From Minisyncoccia bacterium (GTDB lineage Bacteria; Patescibacteriota; Minisyncoccia; Phycocordibacterales; UBA9973), in assembly GCA_049303835.1 (NCBI GenBank), contig JBAQNN010000002.1:94492-158491 (forward strand): a DNA stretch of 64,000 nucleotides. The letters are read 5' to 3'. Both the position numbers and the translations under genes were made by a program. The notes under the pieces were generated by a model. That model was not told the origin of the DNA. It did no database searches and saw only the letters and a program-made list of their open reading frames with translations. Below are positions 27,165 through 41,476 of the stretch, in pieces (position 1 is the stretch's first letter; every line of letters starts with the position of its first letter).

Positions 27165-27650
27165 ATGGATAAAAACGAGATACAAAAATTAATAACAGAA
27201 TTGATTGAAAAAACTACAGTGAAATTAAATGATGTTTCTGTGGTAGAAGACGGGCCCAAAAACATCTGGGTTGCAGTAGAGGTGAGTGAACCACACTTCT
27301 TTATTTCACACGACGGTGAAGGTTTGCAAGCCCTAAACCATATTGTTCATAGAATTATTGAAGCTAAAAACCCTTCCCCCGCACCTGGTTTAGGAGAAAA
27401 AGCAGGGCTGGGAATCCTGGTGGATGTAAATGGTTTTCAAAAAAAGCACGTGGAGAATGTCCGAGCCATAGCTCATATGATGTCTGAGAGAGCGAGATAT
27501 TTTAAATCAAACATAGAAGTTGATCCGATGTCAGCCTTTGAGCGTAGAATTGTACACGAATTTTTATCCGATGCGCCTGATCTCAAAACCGAATCCATGG
27601 GTATGGGGCGTGATCGCCGAGTAGTTATCAAATATATCGGCTCTATTTAA
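27165..27650 (+). CDS. jag: Jag/KhpB-like RNA-binding protein (KH + R3H domains)
   Basis: C-terminal R3H (ERRIVHEFLSD); canonical position after yidC. Confidence 0.7.
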   Translation: MDKNEIQKLITELIEKTTVKLNDVSVVEDGPKNIWVAVEVSEPHFFISHDGEGLQALNHIVHRIIEAKNPSPAPGLGEKAGLGILVDVNGFQKKHVENVRAIAHMMSERARYFKSNIEVDPMSAFERRIVHEFLSDAPDLKTESMGMGRDRRVVIKYIGSI

Positions 27651-29007
27651 GTTCCAATTCCCAAAGGAAAGAGTCTTTTTTGTTTACAAAAAATAGATAA
27701 TTTTCCTCTGTATCAAGCGCGAGTTTTATGCTATCTGTCTCCTCTCCTCCTTCCACAGTGGTTGGGTCTAAAAGAAGAGTCGCATTTCCGGTAGTTAAAT
27801 CTATTTTCCAGAATTGATCTCCGAAAGATACTTCTCCACGATACCAAATATCCGGATATCCCGCTCCGGTAATTACTTTAGGAACTCCACAGTAGATGAC
27901 ATCGCTCACACTTCCCCAGACACATTTTTCCGGTAAAGTCCTTACCCCAAGAACTTCTGATGTCTTTGTGTCTGTATGGTAGATACCGAGAGCTAGGTTG
28001 TTGTTTCCATAAAGAATAGATTTTCCATCTGGACTAGTGAGGGTGGTCAATCCATTTATATTGCCGAAAATTTGGTGCAAGTTTTTATTATTTATTGGGT
28101 CCACGCCATATACAAATCCGGGGACAGAAGCGGCAGGTTTTGTGGTTAAAGTCATGAGTTTGTTGTTTGGCCACTCGGGCAACCACTCGGTGAATGGTGA
28201 ATCAAAGATTTGAGATTTTTTGTTGGTGGTCAGGTTTAAAGTTGTACCCACAATATTTTCTCCGACCTCAAACAGATAAAGAATACTTCCTTTGTCTCCC
28301 GACAGGCTCACATCCCTTATGTCTTCTGGCAAGAATGTTCCAGTTATTTCATTTTCTCCTGTAGTGTCTCCCCCCAAGACTTCTTTTGGCAAATTACCGA
28401 CAAAAGTAATGATGATGTTTCCATCTTCTTTTAAATATCTCATTATCACAGACTCTCCTTTGTTGCCAAAGAATGCTTCATATACTTTAGGAATCATTGT
28501 TCCGGAAAACTTCCTTTCTTCTATTTTATCCGCGAAAGTCTGATAGATGTTTCCTGTAGCTCTATCCACATACCTTAGAGCCGACACGAATTCTGTCGCC
28601 GGTGGGGTTGGTTTTGTGGTGGTCGTTGTTTTTGGAGTTGTTTCTTCCGGGGTGGTGGTATTTTCAGCAGGAGGAGTTGTCGGCGCTACCACAGGAGGAA
28701 TTTCTACTAGTCTTTCTTTAGTATAAACAGTAAAACCAGCCACGGGCATACTGGAGACCTTTTTAAGTTTTACTTCTTCCTGCTCGGGTCCTGGCTCGTA
28801 ACCGGAGACATCAGTAGGAGTGTCTCCTTTGGGCGTCGTCGGTGATTTGCCTCCCGTTCCAAATGGATTGAATTGTGAGATAAAGTTTGTCCCCTCTCCT
28901 TCTTCTCCTAGTGTCCCCGTGCCTTGTTGTAAATATAAAAATCCAAACACTACCAGGATAGTGATGATCAGAATTATTATTAAAAGTATAAAATTTCTTT
29001 TTGACAT
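27643..29007 (-). CDS. hypothetical membrane-anchored extracellular protein (Thr/Pro-rich linker, beta-rich C-domain)
   Basis: N-terminal TM, TTPPAENTTTPEETTPKTTTTTKPTPPA linker; no recognisable family. Confidence 0.45.
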   Translation of the reverse strand: MSKRNFILLIIILIITILVVFGFLYLQQGTGTLGEEGEGTNFISQFNPFGTGGKSPTTPKGDTPTDVSGYEPGPEQEEVKLKKVSSMPVAGFTVYTKERLVEIPPVVAPTTPPAENTTTPEETTPKTTTTTKPTPPATEFVSALRYVDRATGNIYQTFADKIEERKFSGTMIPKVYEAFFGNKGESVIMRYLKEDGNIIITFVGNLPKEVLGGDTTGENEITGTFLPEDIRDVSLSGDKGSILYLFEVGENIVGTTLNLTTNKKSQIFDSPFTEWLPEWPNNKLMTLTTKPAASVPGFVYGVDPINNKNLHQIFGNINGLTTLTSPDGKSILYGNNNLALGIYHTDTKTSEVLGVRTLPEKCVWGSVSDVIYCGVPKVITGAGYPDIWYRGEVSFGDQFWKIDLTTGNATLLLDPTTVEGGEETDSIKLALDTEENYLFFVNKKDSFLWELELK

Positions 29008-29016
29008 ATGTTTTTA

Positions 29017-29994
29017 TTATCTGCCATCCACTGACCAATGCCAAGGTTCGGATGGTAAGTTAGAAAGACCGTATTTACCGGCATTTGCTTGTAGCCACAC
29101 AAAGCACTTATTATCGCGGGTTTGAATAAATTTTCCATCACACTGTAGATCAAATGCCTTGCCATGGTTGTGATTTGATTGACCTGGAAGAGCTGTGGGT
29201 GGATTACATTTTGCACTTGCGTTTTCGTAGTCTCCATTACAATATTTTATTCTTAATTGTTTCTGTTGTTCTGTAGATCTATATCCCCCACCTGTTATGT
29301 TTAATCCGGCACTTTTTGATGCAACTAGCATGGCGTTAATGTTTGAAACAATATCTTTACATGCAAACATGCTAATTTGGGTTTTTACCACTCCGGCGCT
29401 ACATCCAGATGTAACTCCTGGGGGGTTCCCAGAATCGCTTGCTATTGCGTCTGCTAGTGTTACCTCTACTGTTATTTTTTCTAAACTACTCAGATCAGTC
29501 TTTAGAATATCTGGATTTATTTGGTTTAAGATTGTCCAAGCGCCCAAAGCGAGCACAAGTCCAAAAATAGCGCCAGTGATTCTATGTTTACCGTTTTCTT
29601 TATTAGATATCAGTTCACTAGTCATATACTCCAAACCACCCACCACTATCATTATCACAGCCAACACAGCGCATATACCGATGAAAATACGTATCATTAT
29701 GTTCAAATACTCACCTATTTTGGAATTTTCTCCCTCTGCGCTTGTCGGGTCAAAGGTTTTTAGTTGTCCATCTTCACACCCAGGAGTACCTTTTTCACAA
29801 GGCAGAGGGGCTAAAAAATTATATTTCAAATCATTTTCTTGTGTAGCATTTACGCAGGACACCCCATCAGGAGCAAGTATTTTATCTCCTGTGCATTCAA
29901 CTGCCAAAACAGAGTTGGTGGAGACAAAAAAACTAAAGATTAAAAAAACCAATTGTAATGAGACTATTATCTTTTTAAGCATATCTTTTTTCAT
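29017..29994 (-). CDS. VirB2/TrbC-like pilin region fused to M15 (VanY/LAS) D-Ala-D-Ala peptidase domain
   Basis: Signal peptide, Cys-rich segment, two TM helices with Gly-rich turn (IVVGGLEYM...GAIFGLVLALGAW) as in T4SS pilins. C-terminal zinc-peptidase motif SNHNHGKAFDL plus GGGYRS. Confidence 0.45.
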   Translation of the reverse strand: MKKDMLKKIIVSLQLVFLIFSFFVSTNSVLAVECTGDKILAPDGVSCVNATQENDLKYNFLAPLPCEKGTPGCEDGQLKTFDPTSAEGENSKIGEYLNIMIRIFIGICAVLAVIMIVVGGLEYMTSELISNKENGKHRITGAIFGLVLALGAWTILNQINPDILKTDLSSLEKITVEVTLADAIASDSGNPPGVTSGCSAGVVKTQISMFACKDIVSNINAMLVASKSAGLNITGGGYRSTEQQKQLRIKYCNGDYENASAKCNPPTALPGQSNHNHGKAFDLQCDGKFIQTRDNKCFVWLQANAGKYGLSNLPSEPWHWSVDGR

Positions 29995-30980
29995 TAAAAT
30001 TCTACTCTTATTTCTTTACTTGTACCACCGAAAATTTTAAAGGTATCCTCAATCTCCAATTTTATTATAGATGTTCCCGACTGGCCCGACTGGACTGCGA
30101 GGGGCATAATATTCTTTTTATAAGCTGGCACAGCGACTTGATAATCGTTGATAAACCAATTAAATACGAGAGTCGGTATTCGTATTTCTTTAGGTGAGAT
30201 AAAATAAGGTACAGCCTCTATAATTTCATTTCCTTGTATCTTGTGTCCATCAGACAGAATCGTCTCCCAGACAGTTCCCGTAGTCGGGTTCTTTCTGTAA
30301 AATAGAATTTTTGGTTCTACTGTCCCCACAGTAATATTTGCAGCAGAAGAATATTTTTGATCTGTGGTGGAGGCCGTCACTCCTATAGTGCTAGTATCTT
30401 CCAGGTAATCATCTACATAGCTAAAAGAGTTTTTGCCATAACCGGAGGCATCTTGTTTGTTTGTATAGTCTCTCTTCCAAGCATAAACGAGGTTTTTAGA
30501 ATTTACTGTTTGGGTTCCATTTCTAATTTCTGGCATGGCCACTATTTTTATCTCGCTTCCGGTCGTCGGCATAGCCTTGCCACGATAAAAAGGTGGCACA
30601 TGAGAATCGTTTGCTTGCCAAAGGAGAGTCATAATGGATGGGCGGATCGTTATTCTCTTGTCTATAGTTCCGTCCGGTAGAGAGATAGAAGCTACGATGC
30701 TGGTCTCTTTTCCTGCCTCCGGAGCTGTAAGAGAAAAAGACTTTTTACCGATTCCAGACAAAACATTTTTCCCGTCCACAGACCATACGATGAGGACACT
30801 ATCCAGATTGCTGACATAGCTATTCAAGTTGATATTTACATTTTCATTTGGGCCAGGATTTTCCGGAGAGATGTCCACCAAGATACTACTTGAAGAAACA
30901 GCGGTTACTTCGGAAGGGAGAAAAATCCCTGTCAATAAAAGTGTTACTATTAAATATGAAAGTAAAAATCTTAATTGCAT
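29994..30980 (-). CDS. hypothetical secreted protein (signal peptide, repeated beta-rich domains)
   Basis: N-terminal signal MQLRFLLSYLIVTLLLTGIFLPSEVTA; no family recognised. Confidence 0.45.
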   Translation of the reverse strand: MQLRFLLSYLIVTLLLTGIFLPSEVTAVSSSSILVDISPENPGPNENVNINLNSYVSNLDSVLIVWSVDGKNVLSGIGKKSFSLTAPEAGKETSIVASISLPDGTIDKRITIRPSIMTLLWQANDSHVPPFYRGKAMPTTGSEIKIVAMPEIRNGTQTVNSKNLVYAWKRDYTNKQDASGYGKNSFSYVDDYLEDTSTIGVTASTTDQKYSSAANITVGTVEPKILFYRKNPTTGTVWETILSDGHKIQGNEIIEAVPYFISPKEIRIPTLVFNWFINDYQVAVPAYKKNIMPLAVQSGQSGTSIIKLEIEDTFKIFGGTSKEIRVEF

Positions 30981-31045: not shown

Positions 31046-32893
31046 CTATTGTTTACCCTCAGTTTCCGCTCTCTCCTGCTCCTCCTTGGCTTTTCTGTTT
31101 GAAAGTATTTGGGAAGGGTCGGAAGTGATTATCTGGTCTTCAGTATAAGAAGAAATGACTTTTATGGCTACATGCTTTAGGCCGGCAAAGAATATTCCCT
31201 CCCCGAGGCCTGACTCCAAAAGCAGATATTTTTCTTCATCCGTCAGGTTGAAGGTTTTTTGTAAAATATCTATAGTGGTCGGTGATTGTTTAAGGAGAAG
31301 TTGAATAGAAGAGTTTGTAATGATGGGGACACCATAAGGAGATTTCATAAAGTCGGCGGCGTCTTGGGTGATGGTGGAAAGACCGAGATAATATTTTCTA
31401 CCTCTTTTGGCGATAGAGTATAAGAATGAAGCGGTGTCTTCAGATTTCATCATCCACCAAGCCTCATCTACTACCAAGAGGCGCTTTTTCAAATTTTTTC
31501 GTACGGTATTCCAGATATAATGCATGATGATATACATGGCGACGGGTTTTAACTCGTCTTCCATGTCGCGGACGGAAAATACTACGAATTTTTTATTGAT
31601 ATCCACATTGGACGGTCTGTTTAAGAATGTCGCCCAAGAACCCCTCGTATATTTGGCTAGTCTGGTGACGATTGAATCACTTCCATCCATCCCTCCGAGC
31701 ACCATTTCAAAATCTGACAGAAGAGGAGGTTCAATGTTTGAGAAATCAGATTCAGGAGTGATATCTTTCATCGCATAAGTTTCGGAAATAGCTCGGTCTA
31801 CCATTGAATCTTCTTCAGGGGTGAGTCCGCCTAGCATCAATCTGAAAAGCCCTACCAAGTTTATGATATTTGAACGGAGGACATCTTCGGCTGTTTCGCC
31901 TTCGTGAGGAATAGGTAAATCAAAAGGATTGATGTGGTGATCGGAAGAAAGAGAAATATTGAAATATCTTCCACCGACCGCCTCTGACAAGAACTCGTAT
32001 TCCCTTTCCGGATCTATCACTATGACATCAACATCAAACATTAAAGATCTCAAAATTTCTAGCTTAGTGGCATACGATTTTCCGGAGCCGGACTTGGCAA
32101 AGGTCACGGAGTTGTAATTCTCTAGTGAAAATCTATCAAAGATGACTAGGCTGGAATTGTGCCTGTTGATGCCGTAAAGTATTCCTTTGTTGGAAGTCAG
32201 GTCAAAAGAAATAAATGGGAATACACTACTAAGTGGTTCAGAATTCAACTTCTGATGAATACCAAGTATGTCTGTATTTATGGGTATGACGCTCTTAAAA
32301 CCGTCTTCTTGTTGGAAGAGAGCCGGTTTGATATAGATGAGTTTTGATTCAAGGATTGATTTTATCTCATTTTCTATTTTGAAAAGTTCCAACTCGTTGT
32401 CGGCATAAATGGTGATGTAAATACCCACATCAAACATTTTTTCTTGCGCTTGGATCAGATTATTGCGCAGGCCCTCTAGGTCTTGGTAGGCAGTATCAAG
32501 CATAGGGTCGCGCACCATACCCTTACTCTCTCGTACACTTATCTGACTCTGCACCTCGGCGACTTTTTTCTGAAATTGTCTCAAGACCAGAGAAGTGTCT
32601 ATCGGATGAATAAAAATTGAAATATCAAAAACTTTATCCAGATTGATTATAGGAGAGAACCAATTGTCTGTCAGAAATCTAGGATAGGAAATGATGAAAA
32701 AAGTACGAGCGATTTTATCTCCCAAGCTTATGGATTTAGACGATATTTTCAGAGCTGAAGGAGCGATGACATCTTGGAGCTCCAGGGTGGCGGATTGGTA
32801 GATTTCTTCCGGCATCACTGCCAAGACGGAAGCTCTCACTTCCTTTTCCTCCCCTCCTTTTTGTCCACCTAATAATTTTTTTAAAAAGTCCAT
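31046..32893 (-). CDS. virB4: VirB4/TraC-family type IV secretion ATPase (C-terminal 615-aa portion)
   Basis: Walker A TFAKSGSGKSY, Walker B LLVVDEAWWMM, VirB4-type N-flank ...LGDKIARTFFIISYP... Confidence 0.8.
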   Translation of the reverse strand: MDFLKKLLGGQKGGEEKEVRASVLAVMPEEIYQSATLELQDVIAPSALKISSKSISLGDKIARTFFIISYPRFLTDNWFSPIINLDKVFDISIFIHPIDTSLVLRQFQKKVAEVQSQISVRESKGMVRDPMLDTAYQDLEGLRNNLIQAQEKMFDVGIYITIYADNELELFKIENEIKSILESKLIYIKPALFQQEDGFKSVIPINTDILGIHQKLNSEPLSSVFPFISFDLTSNKGILYGINRHNSSLVIFDRFSLENYNSVTFAKSGSGKSYATKLEILRSLMFDVDVIVIDPEREYEFLSEAVGGRYFNISLSSDHHINPFDLPIPHEGETAEDVLRSNIINLVGLFRLMLGGLTPEEDSMVDRAISETYAMKDITPESDFSNIEPPLLSDFEMVLGGMDGSDSIVTRLAKYTRGSWATFLNRPSNVDINKKFVVFSVRDMEDELKPVAMYIIMHYIWNTVRKNLKKRLLVVDEAWWMMKSEDTASFLYSIAKRGRKYYLGLSTITQDAADFMKSPYGVPIITNSSIQLLLKQSPTTIDILQKTFNLTDEEKYLLLESGLGEGIFFAGLKHVAIKVISSYTEDQIITSDPSQILSNRKAKEEQERAETEGKQ

Positions 32894-32975: not shown

Positions 32976-33614
32976 CTACTCTATTTTAATCTTACCCTCC
33001 AATTCTCCGGGGTTGAAAACTTTATAAAATACTTCCACTACTTCTTCGGTATTCAGCTGGGCCGAATTTATTCCACAACGAGACAATCCTTGCTGGATGA
33101 CAGCTACCCTCTCTTCTAGTTGAGATCTCTTCTCTTCAAAATCTATCTGTTTTGCGGCTCGCACTTCTTCTGAATTCTTTTTGGAAAATAGCTTTCCCAA
33201 TATCCCGGAATCTGATTTTAAAGTTGTACGTGAATATGGTATTACAATAAAGAAGTTTTTTGTCATGATACTGACAGATTCAGTAAAGCTTCTTATAAAC
33301 TCTATATATTCCCTAGTTTGCAACTTGATCAACGGCTCATTTTGCACTTTTACTCTGTTTTCTAAAAGGAGTAAATAAGGTCTGATGTCCAGCCTTCTGG
33401 ATTGGACTGATATCTGTACCGGAAAATCCAAGGTGTTTAAAAAATTTTGAAATTGAAGAATGGTCGCATGTTGTTCATCGGAAGATTTCAAGGATAGGTT
33501 GACCGAGTTTGCGAGTACGATGGCTCGGAGCTCACCTTCTTTTAGCACGATGATGCCATCGCGTATCTCTTTGATTGGTATAAATTCTTGTGTTGCTTTT
33601 GCTTTTAATGCCAT
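32976..33614 (-). CDS. probable VirB4 N-terminal domain encoded as a separate 212-aa ORF
   Basis: N-terminus TQEFIPIKEIRDGIIVLKEGELRAIV...SSDEQ resembles the start of Gram-positive PrgJ/TcpF-type VirB4. 212+615 aa approximates full-length VirB4. Confidence 0.45.
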   Translation of the reverse strand: MALKAKATQEFIPIKEIRDGIIVLKEGELRAIVLANSVNLSLKSSDEQHATILQFQNFLNTLDFPVQISVQSRRLDIRPYLLLLENRVKVQNEPLIKLQTREYIEFIRSFTESVSIMTKNFFIVIPYSRTTLKSDSGILGKLFSKKNSEEVRAAKQIDFEEKRSQLEERVAVIQQGLSRCGINSAQLNTEEVVEVFYKVFNPGELEGKIKIE

Positions 33615-33701
33615 AAATTTTTTCTAGGGCTTTAGGCTCTAGGCGTTAGGCTTTAGCTTTTGTTTCGCTAGAGCCTAGTGCCTAAGGCCTAGCTGCCTGC
33701 A
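33615..33701. repeat. heptamer-repeat palindromic element B (long imperfect hairpin, ~26 bp stem with G-T wobble positions)
   Basis: ctagggctttaggctctaggcgttaggctttagc-ttttgtttc-gctagagcctagtgcctaaggcctagctgcctgca; right arm overlaps last codons of the upstream gene. Confidence 0.7.
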
Positions 33702-34141
33702 TTTTTCTTTTTACTCAAATCAAGCACGTCCAAGCTCCAGGCCAAATCTCGCAACCTACTTCCATCCAATTTTGAACTGACATTTGGCAGTACTTCATTT
33801 TTATTTTCATCCATGTTTGTAGTTTGCGATTTATTATTTGCTACCCTACCGGTCTTCTTCTTCCAAATATAAAGTTTGTTTTGAGAAAAATATTTAAACC
33901 CTGCTTCAATCATGTTTATAAAAGGCTTATTGTTTGGTTTATAGAAAGTAAGAGCTAAAGAAAACCCGGCGATAATCAAAATAGGGATGGCGCTAAAGAC
34001 GAGCCCTAATAATTTATAAAGCACAAAACACAAACCTGCTCCGCCGGCCAAATAAGCAAACTCCCTAAAAGTAAAAGGGCCGAATATTTTATCTTCTATT
34101 TCTAAAAATTGTGGAACCTTGAATTGCATAAATACAGGCAC
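33689..34141 (-). CDS. VirB3/PrgI-like small T4SS membrane protein
   Basis: 150 aa; N-terminal EDKIFGPFTFREFAYLAGGAG followed by two TM helices, adjacent to VirB4. GTG start with an ATG 4 codons in. Confidence 0.45.
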   Translation of the reverse strand: MPVFMQFKVPQFLEIEDKIFGPFTFREFAYLAGGAGLCFVLYKLLGLVFSAIPILIIAGFSLALTFYKPNNKPFINMIEAGFKYFSQNKLYIWKKKTGRVANNKSQTTNMDENKNEVLPNVSSKLDGSRLRDLAWSLDVLDLSKKKNAGS

Positions 34142-34507: not shown

Positions 34508-34517
34508 GTGTTTTTTA

Positions 34518-34542
34518 CTAGCGCCTAATGCCTAGAGCCTAG
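34518..34542. repeat. heptamer-repeat element D (CTAGCGCCTAATGCCTAGAGCCTAG), inverted relative to element C
   Basis: Reverse complement CTAGGCTCTAGGCATTAGGCGCTAG pairs with element C across the 119-aa gene. Confidence 0.65.
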
Positions 34543-34548
34543 AAAATA

Positions 34549-35100
34549 TTACTCCGGTATCTCCCTATACGGATCAATTTTAGGAACATCTGCTCTATTT
34601 CCACTGGTCTTTTCTTCTTTAGTAATATTTTCTATTGAGTGGTCCGTCTCTACAACAGGATTTTTTACAAGGCCGGATAGTTTTTGGGCCAAAATGGGAT
34701 GTGGAGAATCTATCTCCAGTTTTTCCGGCACAATCTCAATCCCAGCGGATTTTAGTATCTCTGTGTCGTTCTCCTCTTCTTTTATCTTTGATGAATCTAT
34801 TAATTTTTCTCGGATTTCCTTCAATATTTTTTCATTAACGTCATTTACTATGGTGTGGATTTTTTCCTCCGGCAGTTTTAGACTGTTTCTGACCGACTCT
34901 TCAAATTTATCCGGATGAGTAAACCCAAACATCACCATGTGTGTCTCAAGTGACAATTGACCCATCTGTTCTACGTTTAGATTTTCTTTTTGACCTATTT
35001 CTATAATGTTATCGTCCACATTGGCCGCCATGATTGACCATTTTAGGTCTTCCGGCAAGCTCTCAAATTTTTTTTGTATTTCTTCTAATGATATTTCCAT
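34549..35100 (-). CDS. hypothetical acidic protein (183 aa)
   Basis: No recognisable family; part of the T4SS-like operon. Confidence 0.4.
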   Translation of the reverse strand: MEISLEEIQKKFESLPEDLKWSIMAANVDDNIIEIGQKENLNVEQMGQLSLETHMVMFGFTHPDKFEESVRNSLKLPEEKIHTIVNDVNEKILKEIREKLIDSSKIKEEENDTEILKSAGIEIVPEKLEIDSPHPILAQKLSGLVKNPVVETDHSIENITKEEKTSGNRADVPKIDPYREIPE

Positions 35101-35127: not shown

Positions 35128-38127
35128 CTAGTGTCCTCCGTGTCCCGCATCGTGTCCAGCATCATGTCCCCCACCAGAAGGCGCTTCCGGAGGATGTTCG
35201 TGTTTTGGTTCGGCAGATGCCTTTGGTGTGGCGTGTCCTCCGCCTCCCTTTCCTTCTTTCTTGTGGCCACCTTCTTTGTCGTGCTCTTCCTTATGGAACA
35301 CATCTTTATCTTTTCCTAGATCATATTTTTCTTTTTCAAGTCTCCTCATTTGATCTGGTGCGGTTTTTAGCCTATTTAATTGACCCAGTTCTGTTGTGGC
35401 TTTAAACGCAGCATTCTTTATTGCAGTCATTCTAGGATCGTTATCAGGAACGTTCTGCTTGACAAGCTCTTGAAGTTTTAAATCTTCCCTCTTCATAGTA
35501 AACGTGAGTTGGGCTATTCTCTTTTCTACCCCTTTCAGATTGACTTCATCTTTACCGTTTTTATTTTTTTCAACCAGTTTAGTGATTTCTCCCGAAATGT
35601 CGTCTTTTACCTCCATATTTTTTCCTTCTTCCATTATTGTAGTTAAATTTTCTAACGCCACAGTATTCTCTGTCAACCTGTCTTCTATCTTTTGTAGTTT
35701 TTTATGCCCTTTTTCAATATCAGTGGCGAATGATCCCTGGGCCGCTTCTCCCGTGCCTTTTACTCCCGTAGCTTCCTTGAATTTTCTGGTCACTCCAAAC
35801 GCTGCTGCTCCGGCTGTTGTGACCTTTGCCGCCGTAGCTATACCCGCTATACCCGCGATACCACCGATTCCAGCAAGTGCTGCTGCCACCCCAGCTTTCA
35901 TTACAACCTTCTGGGTTCTTCCTTTGTTTATATCGTCTATTGTGGGTTCTTTGTGTGCTTCTTTAAACATTCTCTCAAATCTTTCTTTGTCGAATCCACT
36001 TCCTTCTCTTGTTTGTGCTTCTTTTTCTGCATCCTTTTTTTCTTCAGCCCAGTTCTTATATTCTTTTGAATCTTTGTAATTGTTTTGGTCAACCATTCCA
36101 CCACTTGCTTTCAACAAAGAACGCGCGAGAGAAGCCGTTAATCCATTTTGTCCGAAGTTATTTATAAATTCTTTCATTCTGTCGTGATTGAGTTCATCCG
36201 CCGATTTGTATCCCTTTGGTCGCTCACCGTTTTTCTTCTTAAATTCTTCCTCACTAATTCCATTCTTCTTTGCTATCGCAAGATTACTGTCGTATTCATC
36301 TTGTTTTTTCTTTGACCATGCTTTTACTTCGTCACCACTCATACTTGTTTTATAGAGCTTTGATTCTTCTTCTAATTTCTTCTTTTGCTTTTCTTTTCGT
36401 CCTTGGTATCCTCCCTCATTTGCAGAACCCAAATTTATGCCGGTTCCGCTTACAAATTTCTTTCCAAGACCAGTGGCCCGAATATCGAAGGATGCCTTTG
36501 ATCCATAATCTGCTGTTTTTAGCATCTTTCTTGCTGCCCAACCAGTGAACCCCCTTTCTTTATTGTTTGCGGCGGTTTTTAGACCCTCACTGCTTGCAAC
36601 TTTACTCGATATCGCGCCTATTGCTTGTGTTGCCATAAGCGATGTACCTCCTGTAGCAGCACCCAAGGCGAGTCCCCCAATTAGTTTTGCACCAGTCATC
36701 AATTTTTCTCCCAAGGCGCCGGAACCCTTTTTGGCATATTCTGTAGCTTTGAGTAAGAGAATTAGAATTACTAAGGCAGGAATTATGATGAGCAAGATAG
36801 TTTCTATGAAGCTCGCGTTTGATTTAGAAATAATTTGGTCAAATATCTTTGCTTGAATCAGCATAAATATAAAATACATAAAGAACATGAAAATCGGCGC
36901 CATAAAAGCGGTTTTAAGCAAACGTTTGAACCAAGCATCCCAACCCAAATATTCAACACTACTTAAAATTGGAATGGTTGAAGACATAAAAGCAAAAGGA
37001 GAGAATATAATTAGAACAAAAAGTTCAATCATACGGCCCACAAAGCTGATGCCGGCAACAAAAAAACAATATGCGGCAAAAAACATGAGCACTCCAGCGA
37101 TGATTGTGATTCCAATCAACATACCCCCAGAAACTTCAGTTGAAGCTTTAACTCCTCCTATTTCTTGGGTTTTAAGTTTTGCAAAAAAATCTGGGGTTAA
37201 TAAACTAGTTGGATTGAATGCGTTTACCATACCACCAGCGACATCCTTTTCTCCATTTGCCGTGTTTTGATATTCCCGTACTTTACCATCTGCGTTTACT
37301 GTGTTGACTTCCATTTTATTGTAAAAAACCAAAGCCAAAACATTAGAAGTATCAATAATTACTTGAGTAAAGAACATAGAAAAGTTTATCAAGAGAGCAA
37401 TAACGATGACTTTCACTATCATTTTTTTTGCATCGTGTCCCGCTAAATCTAAAATTATTTTTATAGCGATAAAAAGGAGAATGAGTATAAAGAAAATATT
37501 TGAAAGATCTCGAACTACACCCCAAGCAGTAGGGATGAATGTAGAATTAGCAAACAATTTGCCACTAAGTGTGATGAATATTAAAACATTAAAAAAATAA
37601 GCTGATAACCACAACAAGAAAGAAGGAATAACATAAAAAAGACCATAAGATGCCTGCACAAAACATCCGGGATAAAAGGAAGAGTCACTTCCTCCTAGCC
37701 CGGTTACTCCAAATCCGCAAATATTTTTTCCAATTTCATTCTCAAATGCAGTTTTTGGGCTATTTGTATTTTGTACATCTGTTCCATCTGCCGCTGCATC
37801 AGATGCTTTTGGTCTCCACTGCCCCCCTCCAGCTTCACAAACACTTTTTGTCTTTTCAGTTACTACACTATTTGTGGTACAAATTCCGGTTACTTCGTCT
37901 TTATTGTCTGGAACCCATCTTTTAGTAAAACCCTCAAGTAGTTCAAGATCCGTACATTTTTGTTGTGTTTCAAACTTTTCTCTTCGTATTATATCGCCAT
38001 TCCTATTTGAAACTTCACAGGTTCCTGTTCCTGTTTGTGCCTCTACTTTCTCAGCCATCCCAAATACCCCGCCCAGTACGATGAGTATCAATAAATATGG
38101 TATTATTTTTTTTACTCTATTTTTCAT
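35128..38127 (-). CDS. VirB6/TrbL-like polytopic membrane protein with Cys-rich N-terminal ectodomain and long C-terminal coiled-coil/low-complexity tail ending in Gly/His repeats
   Basis: Signal/TM, then 6-7 TM helices in the middle, charged coiled-coil C-half, tail GGGGHATPK...GHDAGHDAGHGGH. Architecture of Gram-positive VirB6 analogues. Confidence 0.45.
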   Translation of the reverse strand: MKNRVKKIIPYLLILIVLGGVFGMAEKVEAQTGTGTCEVSNRNGDIIRREKFETQQKCTDLELLEGFTKRWVPDNKDEVTGICTTNSVVTEKTKSVCEAGGGQWRPKASDAAADGTDVQNTNSPKTAFENEIGKNICGFGVTGLGGSDSSFYPGCFVQASYGLFYVIPSFLLWLSAYFFNVLIFITLSGKLFANSTFIPTAWGVVRDLSNIFFILILLFIAIKIILDLAGHDAKKMIVKVIVIALLINFSMFFTQVIIDTSNVLALVFYNKMEVNTVNADGKVREYQNTANGEKDVAGGMVNAFNPTSLLTPDFFAKLKTQEIGGVKASTEVSGGMLIGITIIAGVLMFFAAYCFFVAGISFVGRMIELFVLIIFSPFAFMSSTIPILSSVEYLGWDAWFKRLLKTAFMAPIFMFFMYFIFMLIQAKIFDQIISKSNASFIETILLIIIPALVILILLLKATEYAKKGSGALGEKLMTGAKLIGGLALGAATGGTSLMATQAIGAISSKVASSEGLKTAANNKERGFTGWAARKMLKTADYGSKASFDIRATGLGKKFVSGTGINLGSANEGGYQGRKEKQKKKLEEESKLYKTSMSGDEVKAWSKKKQDEYDSNLAIAKKNGISEEEFKKKNGERPKGYKSADELNHDRMKEFINNFGQNGLTASLARSLLKASGGMVDQNNYKDSKEYKNWAEEKKDAEKEAQTREGSGFDKERFERMFKEAHKEPTIDDINKGRTQKVVMKAGVAAALAGIGGIAGIAGIATAAKVTTAGAAAFGVTRKFKEATGVKGTGEAAQGSFATDIEKGHKKLQKIEDRLTENTVALENLTTIMEEGKNMEVKDDISGEITKLVEKNKNGKDEVNLKGVEKRIAQLTFTMKREDLKLQELVKQNVPDNDPRMTAIKNAAFKATTELGQLNRLKTAPDQMRRLEKEKYDLGKDKDVFHKEEHDKEGGHKKEGKGGGGHATPKASAEPKHEHPPEAPSGGGHDAGHDAGHGGH

Positions 38128-38176
38128 CTCTTTTACTATTCCAGCAACCTCTTAACTTAAAAAACCTTAAACATAT

Positions 38177-40564
38177 TTAAAACGTATCCTCTCCCGCATG
38201 TGTATAGTCCGTCTTATTAGATCTAAAGACAGAGTTGCAATCTATGTCTGCACTGATTCTTTTATCTGTTTCACCTCCACCCAACCAGCTACAAATTCCA
38301 GTACAGGTAATATCTCCGTAAATATTTTTTGCATTGACTATAGGAAGATCTTTGTAGCCTTCTTCTCCCTCGTCATTGTTTTCGTTTCTGAAGGTGAAAG
38401 ATTGCCCTTGGTTAGAGGAATCTGATCTTATTATCTCTCCATGGCTATATCCAGAAACTATCGGAATGCTACAGAACTTTGCAAGTTCCGTCATTTGTCC
38501 ATGTTGTTTGCTTTCTCTTCCTCCAATTTTGTCCCAGTCAGCATTTTCTCTCTGTCCTTCACATTCTGTAGCCATATTCTTTATACTATTCCTTTTGTCG
38601 TTTAGTGAGTCCACATCTGATCTAGCGTTTTCTATTGTTATAGAAGATGAAACTGAAGATTTTATTGAATTATATTGTTTCTTTAACAGAACCATAGTTT
38701 TTTCCTGGGCAGAACCAGCTTCTGGTTGTGTCGCTATCGCCGCTAAGCCTGTTTTTTGTGCCGCTTTTTCGTTTCCTGCTATCGCCTTTAACCTTGCAAG
38801 CGCCTGAGCTTTTTCTCTTTTTATTCTTATAGCTTCGTCCATTTTTTCTGGAAAACCATCCATATTACTTATCTCCTCTAAATACAATATTGAGTTAGGA
38901 AGTTCATTTATCATTCTCATTATCACCCAATCCTTAAAGGAATCTACTGCAAACTTTAATTCTCTAACAGCATCAGTCGCTGCTTTTATTTTTAGATCAT
39001 CATCCCCAGCCTGATCTTTTTGTAGTTTATTTACAATTCTTCCCTGTTCTTCTTTTAATCTTTTTTCCCAGTTTTTGTCTGGTCCAGGAATACACTGGTC
39101 TAGTTTTTCAGCAAGTTGAGAGATCCCAAGACTTTCTGGATTAATATTATTTATTAGTTTCGGTATTATTTCTAGAAGAATTATTTCAGTTTCTGTGTTT
39201 GCTATGTCCCCAGGTATATAGGTACCATTACCAGTATTTCCTATTTCCTCGATCGTTTCTTCAGCACCTGTTTCTGGATTGATTTTTGTAACAATAGTTT
39301 TTCCATGCAATTGTTTTTTAAATTTATCTAATATGATTTCTTCGTCAGGCCCGGAGTCCCAGGACGAGTTAGCTCCTCCCTCATCAGGGCTTCCAAGAGT
39401 TAGCCCATTATAGCTCCAATCGTCCACTACAGGCTCAGGGTTTTTCTTGCTTGCTAGGCTATTTAGCCCGTCTCCTATGAATTTATTTAATAAAGCATCA
39501 AAAATGGTTGAAAGACTATTCCCCATAGCTGCTCCGAGTTCACTTTGGCGAAAGTTTGATCCTAGGGCATTTGTTATCTGGCTTGATACGACAGCGCCAG
39601 GAGTTGTACTTACTAATCCTCCTGGACAAGTATTTTCTTCTTGCCAATCTTGTTTTTCAGTTGCAACCCCATTTTGATAATCCATGTTGTAATTATCACA
39701 CCGCGTCTTTTCTTCTGGTGTTGGTTGTCCGTCGATGTTAAACTGACAAAAACTCTCATCATATTTTTGTGATGGCTTGAAGCTCGGTCTCTGAAATTCG
39801 TTCACTCCATTATTGTAGGATGGATTTGATGGACAAGTTTGTGGAGACAAGAACCCCATTCCCTGTTGTAGGGTTGTTTGTACCTTCTGTGCAGCTGTTT
39901 GAGTGGTTCCTTGTACTCGTCTAGCGAGTTCTTCTGTAGCGAGCATTTGGAAGCCTAGATAATTGTTTTGTGGATATTGAGTGTTTATGAGGAAAGCATC
40001 CCAGCCCCCTACATTGAAATTATTTTGATAGTTGCGAAGTTGTACTGGGTCAGTCATGACCTTACTCAAAGAATATGCTGCGTTATCACTGAGTTGTCTT
40101 TTATATGCGTTTATTGTGTTTAAAGCAAAATCTTTACCAAAAGGATATTTTAGATTGTCATAACCGAATGTGTCTACTAAATTTTTTACTTCTGATTTAG
40201 CGATGTCTTCAAAAAATGATTGTGGGTTTTCTAAAAAGAGAGGGCTTCCATGAAAACCCGAATTTATCCAGTTTACAGTACTTTTTGTTATCTCTTGTAG
40301 GGCTTTTCGGGCTACGGCTTGCAAAACTTGCTTCAAGATTTCTTGATACCATGTTTGTACAGCCTTTGAGGCAGTTATAGCGTTGGAGGCATTTCCTTGT
40401 ATTCCCAACGCAACCTTTATTCCACTCCATATCCCCCCCAAGATATCCATTACAGTAACTGCCTCAGCCTTCCTTGGTTCAATAAATAAAAAAGAGGGGA
40501 CAAGAATCATAATTAGCAGGAAAAGAGAGATTAACTTTTGAATTTTTGGGTTCTTAAAAATCAT
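38177..40564 (-). CDS. hypothetical large membrane-anchored surface protein (795 aa)
   Basis: N-terminal TM/signal (LISLFLLIMILVPSFLF), Gln/Asn-rich and Cys-containing ectodomain with coiled-coil segments. Confidence 0.4.
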   Translation of the reverse strand: MIFKNPKIQKLISLFLLIMILVPSFLFIEPRKAEAVTVMDILGGIWSGIKVALGIQGNASNAITASKAVQTWYQEILKQVLQAVARKALQEITKSTVNWINSGFHGSPLFLENPQSFFEDIAKSEVKNLVDTFGYDNLKYPFGKDFALNTINAYKRQLSDNAAYSLSKVMTDPVQLRNYQNNFNVGGWDAFLINTQYPQNNYLGFQMLATEELARRVQGTTQTAAQKVQTTLQQGMGFLSPQTCPSNPSYNNGVNEFQRPSFKPSQKYDESFCQFNIDGQPTPEEKTRCDNYNMDYQNGVATEKQDWQEENTCPGGLVSTTPGAVVSSQITNALGSNFRQSELGAAMGNSLSTIFDALLNKFIGDGLNSLASKKNPEPVVDDWSYNGLTLGSPDEGGANSSWDSGPDEEIILDKFKKQLHGKTIVTKINPETGAEETIEEIGNTGNGTYIPGDIANTETEIILLEIIPKLINNINPESLGISQLAEKLDQCIPGPDKNWEKRLKEEQGRIVNKLQKDQAGDDDLKIKAATDAVRELKFAVDSFKDWVIMRMINELPNSILYLEEISNMDGFPEKMDEAIRIKREKAQALARLKAIAGNEKAAQKTGLAAIATQPEAGSAQEKTMVLLKKQYNSIKSSVSSSITIENARSDVDSLNDKRNSIKNMATECEGQRENADWDKIGGRESKQHGQMTELAKFCSIPIVSGYSHGEIIRSDSSNQGQSFTFRNENNDEGEEGYKDLPIVNAKNIYGDITCTGICSWLGGGETDKRISADIDCNSVFRSNKTDYTHAGEDTF

Positions 40565-40594
40565 TTGAAGTATTTTAATTATATAATTTTTTAC

Positions 40595-41476
40595 TTAATC
40601 ATTCAATTTATTATACACTTCCTCACTCAGATTCTTGATTGTTTCCTCTAAAGAAACGCTATTTTTTTCGTACTGACTTATTCCTATAAGCGAAACGATT
40701 GCATCCGTGTCATACATCTTGATGTCTTCTATGTTTTCTGCAATTCTTTCCATCCCGTTTATAAAACTCAAATGAAGTGGAACCAAAGATTTTGGTACTC
40801 CTATTTTTAATATTTCGTCTATCAAACTTCTCGTTTGTTTTATTATTGGGTCTAAGTCTTTTAAAACACTTGTGTCCACATTATTTTCATCTATTACAAA
40901 TTTACCCAGCACCTCGATAACGCTTCCCTTTATGGGGTTTTTGGCATAAGCACTGTTTAGCTCATCGTTGTATGTCCTTATTGTTGCGTATTGATTTTCG
41001 TCCAGGATTTTTATATCCGCTTGGGTAAACACCTTTCTAGGTAAGATATTTTGCATTTTTTCGGAAAGAGAGGTAGTTATGCTGTCCACTGTCTTTTCAT
41101 CTACATTTCCTTGCTGATTAAGAGTTGCTACTGTTGAGAACAGTTCCCTTGAAAATTTCTCTGTCTCTGTGAGATTTTCAGTGTAATCTGGGCTGTCTTC
41201 AGTTGTAATGTTTGTGTCAAAACCTTGTTCAGCTTTCAATTTTTTTATTACCGAACTATCTGGGGCTCCGGGAGTAGTTTCTTTTGTTGTCGGGTCTAGA
41301 CCCCACAATGGCTCCTCCCAATCCAAAATTCCATCCCCATCTGTATCTTTATTTACTAGGTCTCCTATCGCCACAGTGTCATAAGTCAGTCCATCTTGTC
41401 CGCCCTTAACAAAATCTACAGTATTTTGAAACACAGAAGTGTTTTTCGCCAAAAAAAGGATGACGAGAAAAACCAC
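40595..41476 (-). CDS. hypothetical membrane-anchored protein with EF-hand/dockerin-like Ca-binding loop
   Basis: N-terminal TM; DTDGDGILDWEE matches the canonical 12-residue EF-hand/dockerin loop. Confidence 0.4.
   Translation of the reverse strand: MVFLVILFLAKNTSVFQNTVDFVKGGQDGLTYDTVAIGDLVNKDTDGDGILDWEEPLWGLDPTTKETTPGAPDSSVIKKLKAEQGFDTNITTEDSPDYTENLTETEKFSRELFSTVATLNQQGNVDEKTVDSITTSLSEKMQNILPRKVFTQADIKILDENQYATIRTYNDELNSAYAKNPIKGSVIEVLGKFVIDENNVDTSVLKDLDPIIKQTRSLIDEILKIGVPKSLVPLHLSFINGMERIAENIEDIKMYDTDAIVSLIGISQYEKNSVSLEETIKNLSEEVYNKLND

What the first reader, a model, noticed from the sequence alone, without database searches (positions are those of the whole stretch)
27643..41476. Type IV secretion-like gene cluster embedded in a housekeeping chromosome region
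A co-directional minus-strand block encodes, by family signatures, the following:
- VirB4 ATPase (31046..32893) plus a separate probable N-terminal fragment (32976..33614).
- A VirB3/PrgI-like small membrane protein (33689..34141).
- A VirB6-like polytopic membrane protein (35128..38127).
- A VirB2/TrbC-like pilin region fused to an M15 peptidase (29017..29994).
- Several large secreted or anchored proteins of unknown function.

No relaxase, VirD4 coupling protein, oriT or integrase is visible in the window. This therefore looks like a chromosomal, non-conjugative T4SS-like apparatus, possibly for DNA uptake or host/episymbiont interaction, as proposed for reduced-genome bacteria. Most components are divergent enough that they may not be called by standard annotation.
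Basis: partly seen in the sequence, partly recalled or inferred. Interest (0 to 1): 0.6.

Follow-up and report, generated by a model that had tools for sequence, protein, structure and literature searches.

The report
Chromosomal type IV secretion locus, Patescibacteria
The flagged block is a real but already described kind of machine, the chromosomal non-conjugative type IV secretion system that ultrasmall Patescibacteria keep next to their replication origin; one detail I did not find discussed is that its pilin is fused to interchangeable cell-wall-cutting enzymes.

Summary
The minus-strand block 27643-41476 encodes:
- a VirB4 ATPase, which passes the NCBIfam CD1110 cut-off;
- a separate TrsD-like protein equivalent to the VirB4 N-terminal domain;
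- a PrgI/VirB3 protein;
- a VirB2-like pilin fused to an M15/VanY peptidase;
- five membrane-anchored, secreted or cytoplasmic proteins with no known family.

The block lies between ksgA and jag/yidC/dnaA/dnaN. It is colinear in 76 of 80 species-level Nomurabacteria/Paceibacteria genomes. VirB4 is conserved at least as well as DnaA. I found no relaxase, coupling protein or element integrase in the window; the only recombinase is a Xer-type enzyme 16 kb away.

This matches the Patescibacteria-clade T4SS described in Wang et al. 2023 (Cell) and Quinonero-Coronel et al. 2025 (Microb Genom). Those papers already report the TrsD gene, the missing relaxase and the position near dnaA. The finding is therefore correct but not new.

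One detail was not discussed in the papers I could search. The orthologous pilin gene carries C-terminal peptidoglycan-enzyme modules (VanY, NlpC/P60, YkuD and others, 18 sequence clusters) that differ even among the closest relatives.

A passenger four-helix-bundle gene flanked by an inverted repeat interrupts the operon.

The parts
40595..41476 (-). p293: first gene of the conserved block. It is a bitopic membrane protein with a DxDxDG (bacterial TSP3-like) calcium-binding-type motif followed by a helical ectodomain. No known family. The true start is probably upstream, near 41527-41530.
   Evidence: Present in 28 of 29 loci where genes on both sides are held. The alignment shows a conserved DTDGDGIxDWEE motif and an N-terminal TM helix in orthologs. 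TSP3_bac hits appear in 3 sequences of a pooled set of 125 orthologs of five families that includes this one; the output does not say which family they belong to. The reading frame is open upstream of GTG 41476 and encodes KHKRVILICSAVVFLVILFLA, as in orthologs. No PDB profile hit.
38177..40564 (-). p795: large protein anchored or secreted through an N-terminal hydrophobic segment, with several conserved cysteines. The C-terminal half is an elongated helical bundle. No known family.
35128..38127 (-). p999: extended VirB6-like polytopic membrane protein. It has a signal peptide, a small Cys-containing beta ectodomain, about 7 TM helices (VirB6-like core roughly at window 36718-37680) and a charged, Gly/His-rich C-terminal tail of about 480 aa.
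34549..35100 (-). p183: small acidic cytoplasmic protein between VirB6 and VirB3. No known family.
   Evidence: No TM segment. Present in 52 of 65 bracketed loci at low identity, median 32%. No Pfam or NCBIfam family.
34148..34507 (-). Passenger gene, not a T4SS part: a four-helix-bundle protein (23S rRNA intervening-sequence protein family).
   Evidence: PF05635 at 6.3e-36. TIGR02436 at 1.9e-34. Present in only 11 of 80 related loci, at three different intergenic sites.
34136..34542 (-). Inverted repeat that brackets the passenger gene. The arms lie at 34136-34165 and 34518-34542 and are predicted to close the ORF into a long stem-loop.
   Evidence: Arms of 23-25 nt, 84-91% complementary. Both the MFE and the centroid RNA fold pair the two arms, z = -2.5. 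Flanking repeats of different sequence surround most of the other copies of the gene.
33689..34141 (-). PrgI/VirB3-like small membrane protein.
   Evidence: Pfam PrgI at 1.2e-8, 35.8 bits against a cut-off of 27. Hydrophobic hairpin at about residues 27-66. Present in 72 of 72 bracketed loci.
32976..33614 (-). TrsD-like protein, the equivalent of the VirB4 N-terminal domain encoded as a separate gene.
   Evidence: NCBIfam hits cover only the N-terminal part of VirB4 models, plus TrsD over profile positions 15-200 of 201. It is a separate ORF upstream of virB4 in all related loci, 210-234 aa long in 70 of the 75 where the ORF is complete and shorter in the other five. Median identity 73%. The TrsD curated cut-off (200 bits) is not reached (27.3 bits).
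31046..32893 (-). VirB4 ATPase of the MPF-FATA-like CD1110 family. It lacks the N-terminal domain, which TrsD supplies.
   Evidence: NF045971 at 364.5 bits, above the cut-off of 325, covering profile positions 182-733 of 752. P-loop_TraG and AAA_10. Walker A and B motifs are intact. At least 592 relatives in species-level genomes; the 80 best all carry Patescibacteria-type record titles or are unnamed MAGs.
29994..30980 (-). p328: secreted or anchored beta-rich (Ig-like) protein directly downstream of virB4. No known family.
   Evidence: N-terminal hydrophobic segment. Present in 70 of 70 bracketed loci. No PDB profile hit. Only weak Ig-like hits.
29017..29994 (-). VirB2-like pilin fused to an M15B (VanY/LdcB-type) zinc peptidase. 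It has a signal peptide, a Cys-containing N-terminal segment, a pilin helical hairpin (about window 29467-29823) and the peptidase domain (about window 29032-29358).
   Evidence: T4SS_pilin at 7.9e-8 and VanY at 9.5e-13, both above cut-off. NF045849 Mbov_0395 pilin-like at 3.3e-7. Three hydrophobic segments. It aligns to VanY/LdcB crystal structures with the SxHxxGxAxD motif kept, and EPWHW is present. It is the only pilin-domain ORF in the window.
27643..29007 (-). p454: last gene of the block. It has an N-terminal TM anchor, a Pro/Thr-rich linker and a conserved domain of about 300 aa, probably a beta-propeller. No known family.
   Evidence: TM segment at residues 6-24. Present in 61 of 61 bracketed loci, median identity 47%. 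No PDB profile hit. PD40 hits in 2 orthologs only.

Best explanation
[quoted passage not shown] It derives from the monoderm (MPF-FATA) conjugation machinery but is no longer part of a mobile element.

**Shown by computation**
- An intact VirB4 motor whose N-terminal domain is encoded separately (TrsD-like).
- A VirB3/PrgI membrane partner.
- An extended VirB6-fold polytopic protein.
- One VirB2-fold pilin whose C-terminus carries a zinc peptidase with its catalytic motif intact.
- Five co-inherited proteins specific to this lineage, four of them membrane-anchored or secreted.

**Inferred mechanism**
- VirB4, TrsD, VirB3 and VirB6 form the cytoplasmic-membrane translocon.
- The pilin hairpin is inserted by Sec, with its loop in the cytoplasm and its C-terminal enzyme outside.
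- The hairpin docks at the VirB6/VirB4 platform. The tethered peptidoglycan enzyme then remodels the wall exactly where the machine crosses it. This is the job done by VirB1/PrgK in other systems.
- p328, p454, p795 and p293 supply the wall-spanning and contact parts. In ordinary Gram-positive systems VirB8-like proteins and adhesins do this.

There is no relaxase and no coupling protein at the locus. The machine therefore most likely does not conjugate DNA. It more likely serves contact-dependent exchange with the host cell, either effector export or uptake of host macromolecules. The support is by analogy: the homologous system is essential for epibiotic growth in Southlakia epibionticum. 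The direction of transport and the substrate remain unknown.
For: - **Component identities.**, detailed under parts.
- **Complementary model coverage.** TrsD covers VirB4-model positions 1-75, 3-177 and 101-237. The 615-aa ATPase covers 182-733, 269-725 and 287-892. Together they make one full VirB4.
- **Fixed chromosomal locus.** The order ksgA-p293-p795-p999-p183-prgI-trsD-virB4-p328-pilin-p454 | jag-yidC | dnaA-dnaN is colinear in 76 of 80 species-level genomes. Each core gene is present in 100% of loci that bracket it.
- **Strong purifying selection on the motor.** Median identity to the window is VirB4 86%, DnaA 80%, TrsD 73%, DnaN 70%, YidC 66%. The exposed proteins are at 30-47%.
- **Composition.** G+C of the block is 0.37-0.41, inside the window's range of 0.32-0.42.
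- **No mobility genes.** No relaxase, VirD4 or element integrase among the window's ORFs.
- **Literature.** The same gene set, the TrsD association, the rarity of relaxases and the proximity to dnaA/dnaN/ksgA in Paceibacteria are reported in PMC12102498. Tn-seq essentiality of the T4SS genes and pilins in S. epibionticum is reported in PMC10633639 and reviewed in PMC12857230.
Against: - No function was tested; everything mechanistic is inference.
- VirB6 identity rests on fold rank and on ortholog HMM hits. The window protein alone scores E 0.019, and the Foldseek E-values are not significant.
- The five accessory proteins are tied to the T4SS only by conserved synteny. None matches a T4SS family.
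- No VirB8-like protein was found.
- A coupling protein or relaxase could be encoded outside the 64-kb window. PMC12102498 reports VirD4 homologs far from virB4 in many Patescibacteria.
- The 80 loci were chosen as the best VirB4 matches, which inflates VirB4's apparent conservation somewhat.
- VanY and YkuD-type domains are wall-remodelling rather than strictly lytic enzymes, so the VirB1-like role is a guess.
Confidence: 0.85

Rival explanations
1. A remnant or active integrated conjugative element (ICE) that carries a Gram-positive-type T4SS and has inserted near the origin.
For: VirB4 belongs to a family defined on a Clostridioides ICE (CD1110). The pilin and the VirB6-like orthologs hit Mycoplasma ICE families. 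A tyrosine recombinase exists in the window.
Against: - Position and gene order are the same in 76 of 80 species-level genomes.
- VirB4 is conserved at least as well as DnaA.
- No relaxase or T4CP was found.
- The recombinase is Xer-type (XerD 251 bits; XerA_Arch 244.5, above its cut-off of 220). It lies 16 kb away among housekeeping genes.
- There is no compositional break.
Confidence: 0.03
2. A ComB-like DNA-uptake (competence) T4SS. A VirB2/3/4/6 set without a coupling protein or relaxase imports environmental or host DNA to feed a cell that cannot make nucleotides.
For: The gene content (VirB2, VirB3, VirB4 and VirB6, with no T4CP, VirB11 or relaxase at the locus) resembles Helicobacter ComB as I know it (established knowledge, not tested here). 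In the ABY1 class the locus sits next to comF, recG and radA (PMC12102498). A 2026 preprint links VirB4 and tubular structures to acquisition of host nucleic acid.
Against: In S. epibionticum competence depends on type IV pili and ComEC. Deleting comEC abolishes transformation but not viability, whereas the T4SS is essential (PMC12857230 summarising PMC10633639). There are no competence genes next to the block in this window; the only neighbour of that kind is a lone PilB ATPase 11 kb from the block.
Confidence: 0.1
3. Only the core (p999 to the pilin gene) is a secretion machine. The flanking conserved genes (p293, p795, p454 and perhaps p328 and p183) are unrelated envelope genes that stay nearby because the origin-proximal region is syntenic in this lineage.
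For: None of these five families matches any T4SS family in Pfam, NCBIfam or the PDB. The housekeeping neighbours (ksgA, jag, yidC, dnaA) are just as syntenic.
Against: The genes are co-directional and tightly spaced with the core genes: gaps are 9-82 nt and there is one 1-nt overlap. p328 sits between virB4 and the pilin gene in 68 of the 70 loci that hold both. Their fast divergence fits surface parts of a contact machine.
Confidence: 0.2

Closest known systems
Patescibacteria-clade T4SS (Quinonero-Coronel et al. 2025, PMC12102498; S. epibionticum SEML1_0006-0019, Wang et al. 2023, PMC10633639)
   Same: VirB4 with an adjacent TrsD, PrgI/VirB3, VirB6 and a VirB2-like pilin near virB4. No relaxase and no outer-membrane core. 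In Paceibacteria the locus lies beside dnaA, dnaN and ksgA.
   Different: Saccharimonadia carry arrays of 2-11 free-standing pilin genes. This locus has a single pilin gene, fused to a wall enzyme. The five conserved accessory families found here are not named in those papers. No essentiality data exist for Paceibacteria.
MPF-FATA conjugative T4SSs of monoderms (pGO1 TrsD/TrsE, C. difficile CTn2 CD1110, pCF10 PrgH-PrgI-PrgJ-PrgK-PrgL)
   Same: The VirB4 family is the same: the CD1110 model is passed. A TrsD-type split N-terminal domain occurs as in pGO1. The gene order VirB6-VirB3-VirB4-wall hydrolase matches the pCF10 order, which I recall from memory and did not test.
   Different: There is no relaxase, coupling protein, VirB8-like protein (PrgL/TcpC) or adhesin. 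A VirB2-like pilin is present, which Gram-positive systems lack (PMC12857230). The locus is chromosomal and fixed rather than mobile.
Mycoplasma ICE transfer module (Mbov_0395 pilin-like, Mbov_0396 / MMCAP2_0566 TM protein, Mbov_0397 VirB4)
   Same: All three NCBIfam families are hit. The pilin scores 3.3e-7. The VirB6-like orthologs score down to 6e-9 and 7e-8. VirB4 scores 7.1e-77, and TrsD scores 2.6e-11 against the N-terminus of the VirB4 model.
   Different: Every score is below the curated cut-offs, so these are relatives and not members. The Mycoplasma modules sit on mobile ICEs.
VirB6 / DotA channel proteins of Gram-negative T4SSs (R388 TrwI, Legionella DotA)
   Different: Sequence identity is 8-11%. 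There is no Pfam TrbL/VirB6 hit, and the Foldseek E-values are not significant. The N-terminal beta ectodomain and the 480-aa charged tail have no counterpart.
VirB1-type T4SS wall hydrolases (PrgK, TraG of pIP501, CD419)
   Same: A membrane-tethered peptidoglycan enzyme is encoded just downstream of virB4. Orthologs carry NlpC/P60 or SLT modules, like those proteins.
   Different: The tether here is a VirB2-like pilin hairpin instead of a plain N-terminal TM helix. In this window the enzyme is an M15B VanY/LdcB-type peptidase.

Membership tests
Type IV secretion system (VirB4-based) | VirB4-family ATPase with P-loop motifs | tested here: met
   NF045971 at 364.5 bits against a cut-off of 325. 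Pfam P-loop_TraG at 7.5e-25. Walker A and B motifs present.
Type IV secretion system (VirB4-based) | VirB3-like small membrane partner | tested here: met
   Pfam PrgI at 35.8 bits against a cut-off of 27.
Type IV secretion system (VirB4-based) | VirB6-like polytopic channel protein | tested here: met
Type IV secretion system (VirB4-based) | VirB8-like bitopic protein | tested here: not met
   No VirB8, TcpC or PrgL family hit in any block protein or in 125 orthologs. PDB profile searches were empty. Structures of p328, p454 and p293 were not predicted, so a fold-level VirB8 is not excluded.
Conjugative element (ICE or plasmid T4SS) | Relaxase and oriT | tested here: not met
   No relaxase family among the window ORFs scanned. 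The two unscanned ORFs in the tRNA cluster and the end-cut ORFs were read only as translations. oriT cannot be searched without a relaxase family. The genome outside the window was not seen.
Conjugative element (ICE or plasmid T4SS) | Type IV coupling protein (VirD4/TcpA) | tested here: not met
   None in the window. The only other secretion ATPase is a PilB-type T4P ATPase at 14538-16235.
Conjugative element (ICE or plasmid T4SS) | Element integrase at a border, with variable presence or location among relatives | tested here: not met
   The only recombinase is Xer-type and lies 16 kb away. The block is colinear in 76 of 80 genomes.
Patescibacteria-clade T4SS (PMC12102498) | TrsD homolog adjacent to virB4 | tested here: met
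   A TrsD-like ORF lies directly upstream of virB4 in the window and matches in 80 of 80 loci. The NCBIfam TrsD cut-off is not reached (27 against 200 bits).
Patescibacteria-clade T4SS (PMC12102498) | VirB2-like pilin encoded near virB4 in a monoderm | tested here: met
   PF18895 above its cut-off, two genes downstream of virB4. 69 of 70 orthologs have the domain.
Patescibacteria-clade T4SS (PMC12102498) | Origin-proximal chromosomal location (dnaA, dnaN, ksgA nearby) in Paceibacteria | tested here: met
   dnaA lies 2.1 kb beyond the block's last gene. ksgA is directly upstream.
Patescibacteria-clade T4SS (PMC12102498) | VirB4 falls in the monophyletic Patescibacteria clade | not tested
   No phylogeny was built. 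Indirect support: at least 592 confirmed relatives, and the best 80 (75-92% identity) are all Patescibacteria-type MAGs.
ComB-type DNA-uptake T4SS | Functional coupling to DNA import (ComEC-dependent transformation) | not testable with these tools
   Only literature on a different class is available. In S. epibionticum competence needs T4P and ComEC, and the T4SS is essential independently of ComEC.
M15B VanY/LdcB peptidases (pilin C-terminal domain) | LAS zinc-binding motifs (SxHxxGxAxD and a C-terminal His) | tested here: met
   SNHNHGKAFD aligns to SEHQLGLAVD of VanY structures. EPWHW is present at residues 316-320. Pfam VanY at 48.5 bits against a cut-off of 25.

The most novel reading that the evidence does not exclude
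The single VirB2-like pilin of the Nomurabacteria/Paceibacteria T4SS may be a modular carrier. Its conserved hairpin is fused to interchangeable peptidoglycan-active modules: VanY/M15, NlpC/P60, YkuD, SLT, amidase and several unknown types.

These modules form 18 sequence clusters in 70 orthologs, and they differ among genomes whose VirB4 proteins are each 90-92% identical to the window's. If the fusion polymerises, or sits at the tip of the channel, the enzyme would be presented to the host's cell wall rather than the cell's own wall. Module turnover would then track the wall chemistry of the host, making this gene a determinant of host range.
Probability: 0.2. Interest if true: 0.65.

Novelty: already known. 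Interest (0 to 1): 0.3.

Why it matters
The Patescibacteria T4SS matters because it is the first T4SS shown to be essential for the bacterium that carries it. It is also a leading candidate for how these ultrasmall episymbionts exploit their hosts. That significance was established by Wang et al. 2023 and Quinonero-Coronel et al. 2025, so this window adds another typical example.

The analysis adds three things:
- A precise parts list for the Nomurabacteria-type locus: 10 co-inherited genes, five of them without any family.
- Fold-level support that the 999-aa protein is the VirB6 component.
- The observation that the pilin is fused to rapidly swapped cell-wall enzyme modules. This gives a concrete, testable handle on whether the machine works on the host wall.

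Tried and rejected
- **PDB profile searches.** Profile (hmmsearch) searches of the PDB with ortholog alignments of TrsD, p999, p293, p328 and p454 found nothing significant.
- **Pfam on VirB6 orthologs.** 40 VirB6-like orthologs gave no TrbL/VirB6 hit. Two distant homologs listed with precomputed PF19590 gave no hit in the current Pfam at E<=0.01.
- **AlphaFold database fold search.** Not available on the machine.
- **Pooled Pfam scan.** 125 orthologs of the five unknown families were scanned for VirB8, TcpC, VirB5 or PrgF-type families. None was found.
- **Second pilin gene.** A home-made pilin HMM found no second pilin gene in the window.
- **Broader pilin homolog search.** The pilin domain returned only 24 short free-standing pilins, so it could not measure how widespread the fusion is.
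- **Promoter and terminator scan of the block.** No more sites than in shuffles.
- **DnaA-box search.** No overall enrichment (24 found against 17 expected). Three boxes lie just upstream of dnaA.
- **Source contig look-up.** Exact-protein look-up found nothing on record.
- **Pseudogene hypothesis for the virB4 split.** Rejected, because virB4 is preceded by a separate trsD-like ORF in every related locus; that ORF is 210-234 aa long in 70 of the 75 loci where it is complete.


Full report
**Observation**

The window carries a run of co-directional minus-strand ORFs from 41476 down to 27643, with short gaps.

Curated profile searches confirm four of the five family calls outright:
- 31046-32893 is a VirB4 ATPase. 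Pfam gives P-loop_TraG 7.5e-25 and AAA_10. NCBIfam NF045971 'CD1110 family' scores 364.5 bits against a cut-off of 325. The Walker A and B motifs are intact.
- 33689-34141 is PrgI/VirB3, at 35.8 bits against a cut-off of 27.
- 29017-29994 combines a T4SS_pilin domain (32.7 against 26.6 bits; TrbC is weaker) with a VanY/M15 peptidase domain (48.5 against 25 bits).
- 32976-33614 matches only the N-terminal stretch of VirB4 models (positions 101-237, 1-75 and 3-177). It also matches TrsD across nearly the whole model.

The 615-aa ATPase matches the complementary C-terminal stretches of those same models. The two genes together therefore equal one full VirB4.

**The VirB6 call**

The 999-aa protein has no Pfam hit, either alone or in 40 orthologs. 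Three other lines support the call.
- *Layout.* It has a signal peptide and about seven hydrophobic helices, followed by a 480-aa charged tail.
- *Ortholog HMM hits.* Among 40 orthologs, 10 match NCBIfam 'MMCAP2_0566 conjugal transfer protein' (best 6.3e-9). Six match 'Mbov_0396 ICE transmembrane protein' (best 7.1e-8). Three match 'CD3337/EF1877 mobilome membrane protein'. The window protein itself reaches only E 0.019.

Foldseek ranks the same proteins first, but with non-significant E-values of 0.09-0.6. I accept 'VirB6-like' at the fold level. The long hydrophilic tail fits the 'extended VirB6' class described in PMC12857230.

**Context and conservation**

The block sits between ksgA (with uvrD/pcrA further out) on one side and jag, yidC, dnaA and dnaN on the other. 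The rest of the window is housekeeping: ruvABC, uvrABC, polA, tyrS, a PBP, PNPase, CCA-adding enzyme and tRNAs.

A scan of one genome per species found at least 592 loci that encode a relative of this VirB4. The best 80 (75-92% identity) are all Nomurabacteria, Paceibacteria or Patescibacteria-type MAGs, or unnamed MAGs. NCBI places Nomurabacteria in the Parcubacteria group of Patescibacteria.

tblastn of the window's proteins against those 80 loci gives the order ksgA-p293-p795-p999-p183-prgI-trsD-virB4-p328-pilin-p454 | jag-yidC | dnaA-dnaN. The order is colinear in 76 of 80 loci. Each core gene is present in every locus that holds genes on both sides of it; p293 is in 28 of 29 such loci and p183 in 52 of 65.

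In every related locus virB4 is preceded by a separate trsD-like ORF. That ORF is 210-234 aa long in 70 of the 75 loci where it is complete, and the longest ORF found is shorter in the other five. The split is therefore a conserved gene arrangement and not a frameshift in this genome.

Median identity to the window over the 50 loci that also hold dnaA and dnaN:

| Protein | Median identity |
|---|---|
| VirB4 | 86% |
| DnaA | 80% |
| TrsD | 73% |
| DnaN | 70% |
| YidC | 66% |
| PrgI | 59% |
| Exposed proteins | 30-47% |

One caveat applies: the loci were chosen by VirB4 similarity, which favours VirB4 somewhat. Base composition shows no break at the block.

**Mobility genes**

The Pfam and NCBIfam scans covered every listed ORF of 100 aa or more except two in the tRNA cluster and ORFs that overlap a scanned gene. 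They found no relaxase and no VirD4/TcpA-type coupling protein. The two unscanned ORFs and the ORFs cut by the window ends were read only as translations.

57295-58212 encodes a tyrosine recombinase, but it is Xer-type: XerD 251 bits, XerC 250 bits, and XerA_Arch 244.5 bits against a cut-off of 220. It lies 16 kb away, between an exonuclease III-like gene and a NYN-domain gene. I take it to be the chromosome-dimer resolvase and not an element integrase.

**What is known**

This is the system described by Quinonero-Coronel et al. 2025 (PMC12102498). That paper reports:
- a Patescibacteria-specific VirB4 clade related to MPF-FATA;
- TrsD as the most abundant associated component;
- PrgI/VirB3, VirB6 and VirB2-like pilins near virB4;
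- almost no VirB8;
- relaxases in only about 100 genomes;
- proximity to dnaA, dnaN and ksgA in Paceibacteria.

Wang et al. 2023 (PMC10633639) showed by Tn-seq that the homologous cluster and its pilins are essential for epibiotic growth of Southlakia epibionticum. They also noted the lack of recognisable coupling and relaxase proteins. A 2025 review calls these systems unique among monoderm T4SSs, both for essentiality and for potential pili. A 2026 preprint reports tubular structures at a parasite-host interface that may be T4SS pili.

**Most likely mechanism**

Shown by computation: the parts list above, intact catalytic motifs in VirB4 and in the peptidase, and strong co-inheritance.

Inferred:
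- VirB4 with TrsD, VirB3 and VirB6 forms the membrane translocon.
- The pilin is exported by Sec. Its hydrophobic segments lie at residues 6-24, 103-121 and 139-157, and the loop between the last two is basic (KENGKHR).
- That topology places the C-terminal enzyme outside the membrane.
- The hairpin docks the enzyme at the machine, where it remodels peptidoglycan, the role of VirB1/PrgK elsewhere.
- The four anchored or secreted lineage-specific proteins provide the wall-spanning and contact parts.

With no relaxase or coupling protein at the locus, conjugation is unlikely. The likely role is contact-dependent exchange with the host. The direction of transport and the substrate cannot be decided from sequence.

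The main rival is a ComB-like nucleic-acid importer. It is weakened by the S. epibionticum result that competence runs through type IV pili and ComEC while the T4SS is essential independently of ComEC.

**Detail not discussed in the literature I could search**

The orthologous gene two positions downstream of virB4 carries the pilin domain in 69 of 70 complete ORFs, and a C-terminal extension of 100 aa or more in 65. Homology to the window protein usually stops right after the second helix, at about residues 160-200.

The extensions fall into 18 sequence clusters:

| Cluster size | Pfam type seen in scanned members |
|---|---|
| 13 | NlpC/P60 |
| 12 | none (only one member, L006, was scanned individually) |
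| 9 (includes the window) | VanY |
| 5 | YkuD |

Pfam on 41 orthologs gives these counts:

| Family | Orthologs |
|---|---|
| T4SS_pilin | 37 |
| NlpC/P60 | 8 |
| VanY | 7 |
| YkuD | 4 |
| Amidase_5 | 4 |
| Peptidase_M15_4 | 3 |
| SLT_2 | 2 |

The modules differ among the closest relatives I scanned individually, whose VirB4 proteins are 88-92% identical to the window's. L001, L007 and L009 carry VanY. L002, L003, L008 and L012 carry NlpC/P60. L004 carries YkuD. L006 and L017 carry no recognised domain.

The window's domain aligns to VanY and LdcB crystal structures with the zinc motif kept. The main text of PMC12102498 mentions no such fusion. One supplementary row does list a VirB2 hit whose protein cluster is annotated PF00877. 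The fusion is therefore implicit in their data but not discussed.

Whether the fusion polymerises into a pilus or is only an anchor is unknown.

**Unknown components**

p293, p795, p183, p328 and p454 have no Pfam, NCBIfam or PDB-sequence relatives, even when 125 orthologs are scanned.
- p293 has a TSP3-like DxDxDG motif and a helical ectodomain.
- p454 looks like an anchored beta-propeller; only 2 orthologs have weak PD40 hits.
- p328 is beta-rich.
- The C-terminal half of p795 is a confident helical bundle without a specific structural match.

No VirB8-like protein was identified.

**Verdict**

Interest is low to moderate. It rests on the pilin-enzyme module swapping and on a cleaner parts list for this lineage.

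Noticed in passing
window 34136-34542 (gene 34148-34507, minus strand): A four-helix-bundle protein gene (23S rRNA intervening-sequence protein family, PF05635/TIGR02436) sits inside the T4SS operon. It is bracketed by a 23-25 nt inverted repeat built of CTAGGC-like units, and the predicted RNA fold closes the ORF into a long stem-loop. Only 11 of 80 related loci have such a gene, at three different intergenic sites. Most copies have flanking inverted repeats of a different sequence. It resembles an rRNA intervening sequence placed in an mRNA operon.
   Followed up: partly
window 29017-29994 and the orthologous ORFs in L001-L080: The C-terminal enzyme module of the pilin fusion is swapped among close relatives (VanY, NlpC/P60, YkuD, SLT, amidase, unknown; 18 clusters in 70 orthologs). 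N-terminal extensions also vary; one carries a CBM_10 domain.
   Followed up: partly
window 41477-41530: The reading frame of the first block gene is open upstream of its GTG at 41476. It encodes KHKRVILICSA..., which completes the transmembrane helix seen in orthologs. No ATG, GTG or TTG is available there, so the true start may be an ATA or ATT codon near 41527-41530.
   Followed up: partly
window 57295-58212 (minus strand): A Xer-type tyrosine recombinase (XerC/XerD/XerA-like) lies among housekeeping genes. It is the only recombinase in the window and is probably the chromosome-dimer resolvase.
   Followed up: yes
window 14538-16235 (plus strand): A lone PilB/GspE-type type IV pilus assembly ATPase sits between tsaE and ruvB, with no other pilus genes beside it.
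   Followed up: no
window about 48000-53500: The cumulative GC skew reaches its minimum near 48-50 kb, and gene orientation flips around a cluster of four tRNA genes (51252-53375). This is about 25 kb from dnaA. The T4SS block may therefore lie between dnaA and the skew-inferred origin. Three DnaA-box-like sites lie just upstream of dnaA (25532-25633).
   Followed up: partly
window 46342-48669 (residues about 398-493): A 775-aa protein of unknown function shares a domain of about 95 aa (34-45% identity) with a gene that lies between the p795 and VirB6-like genes in 10 related loci. This hints at a further variable accessory component of the system.
   Followed up: no
window 42414-43955 and 46011-46316: A fused MFS/spermidine-synthase protein (NF037959, 273 bits) and a DUF5663 protein lie just upstream of the block, between ksgA and the 775-aa protein.
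   Followed up: no
window 31046-32893 compared with 24213-25556: Across 50 related genomes VirB4 (median 86% identity) is at least as conserved as DnaA (80%) and more conserved than DnaN (70%). This is unusual for a secretion ATPase and fits an essential role, although the loci were selected by VirB4 similarity.
   Followed up: yes
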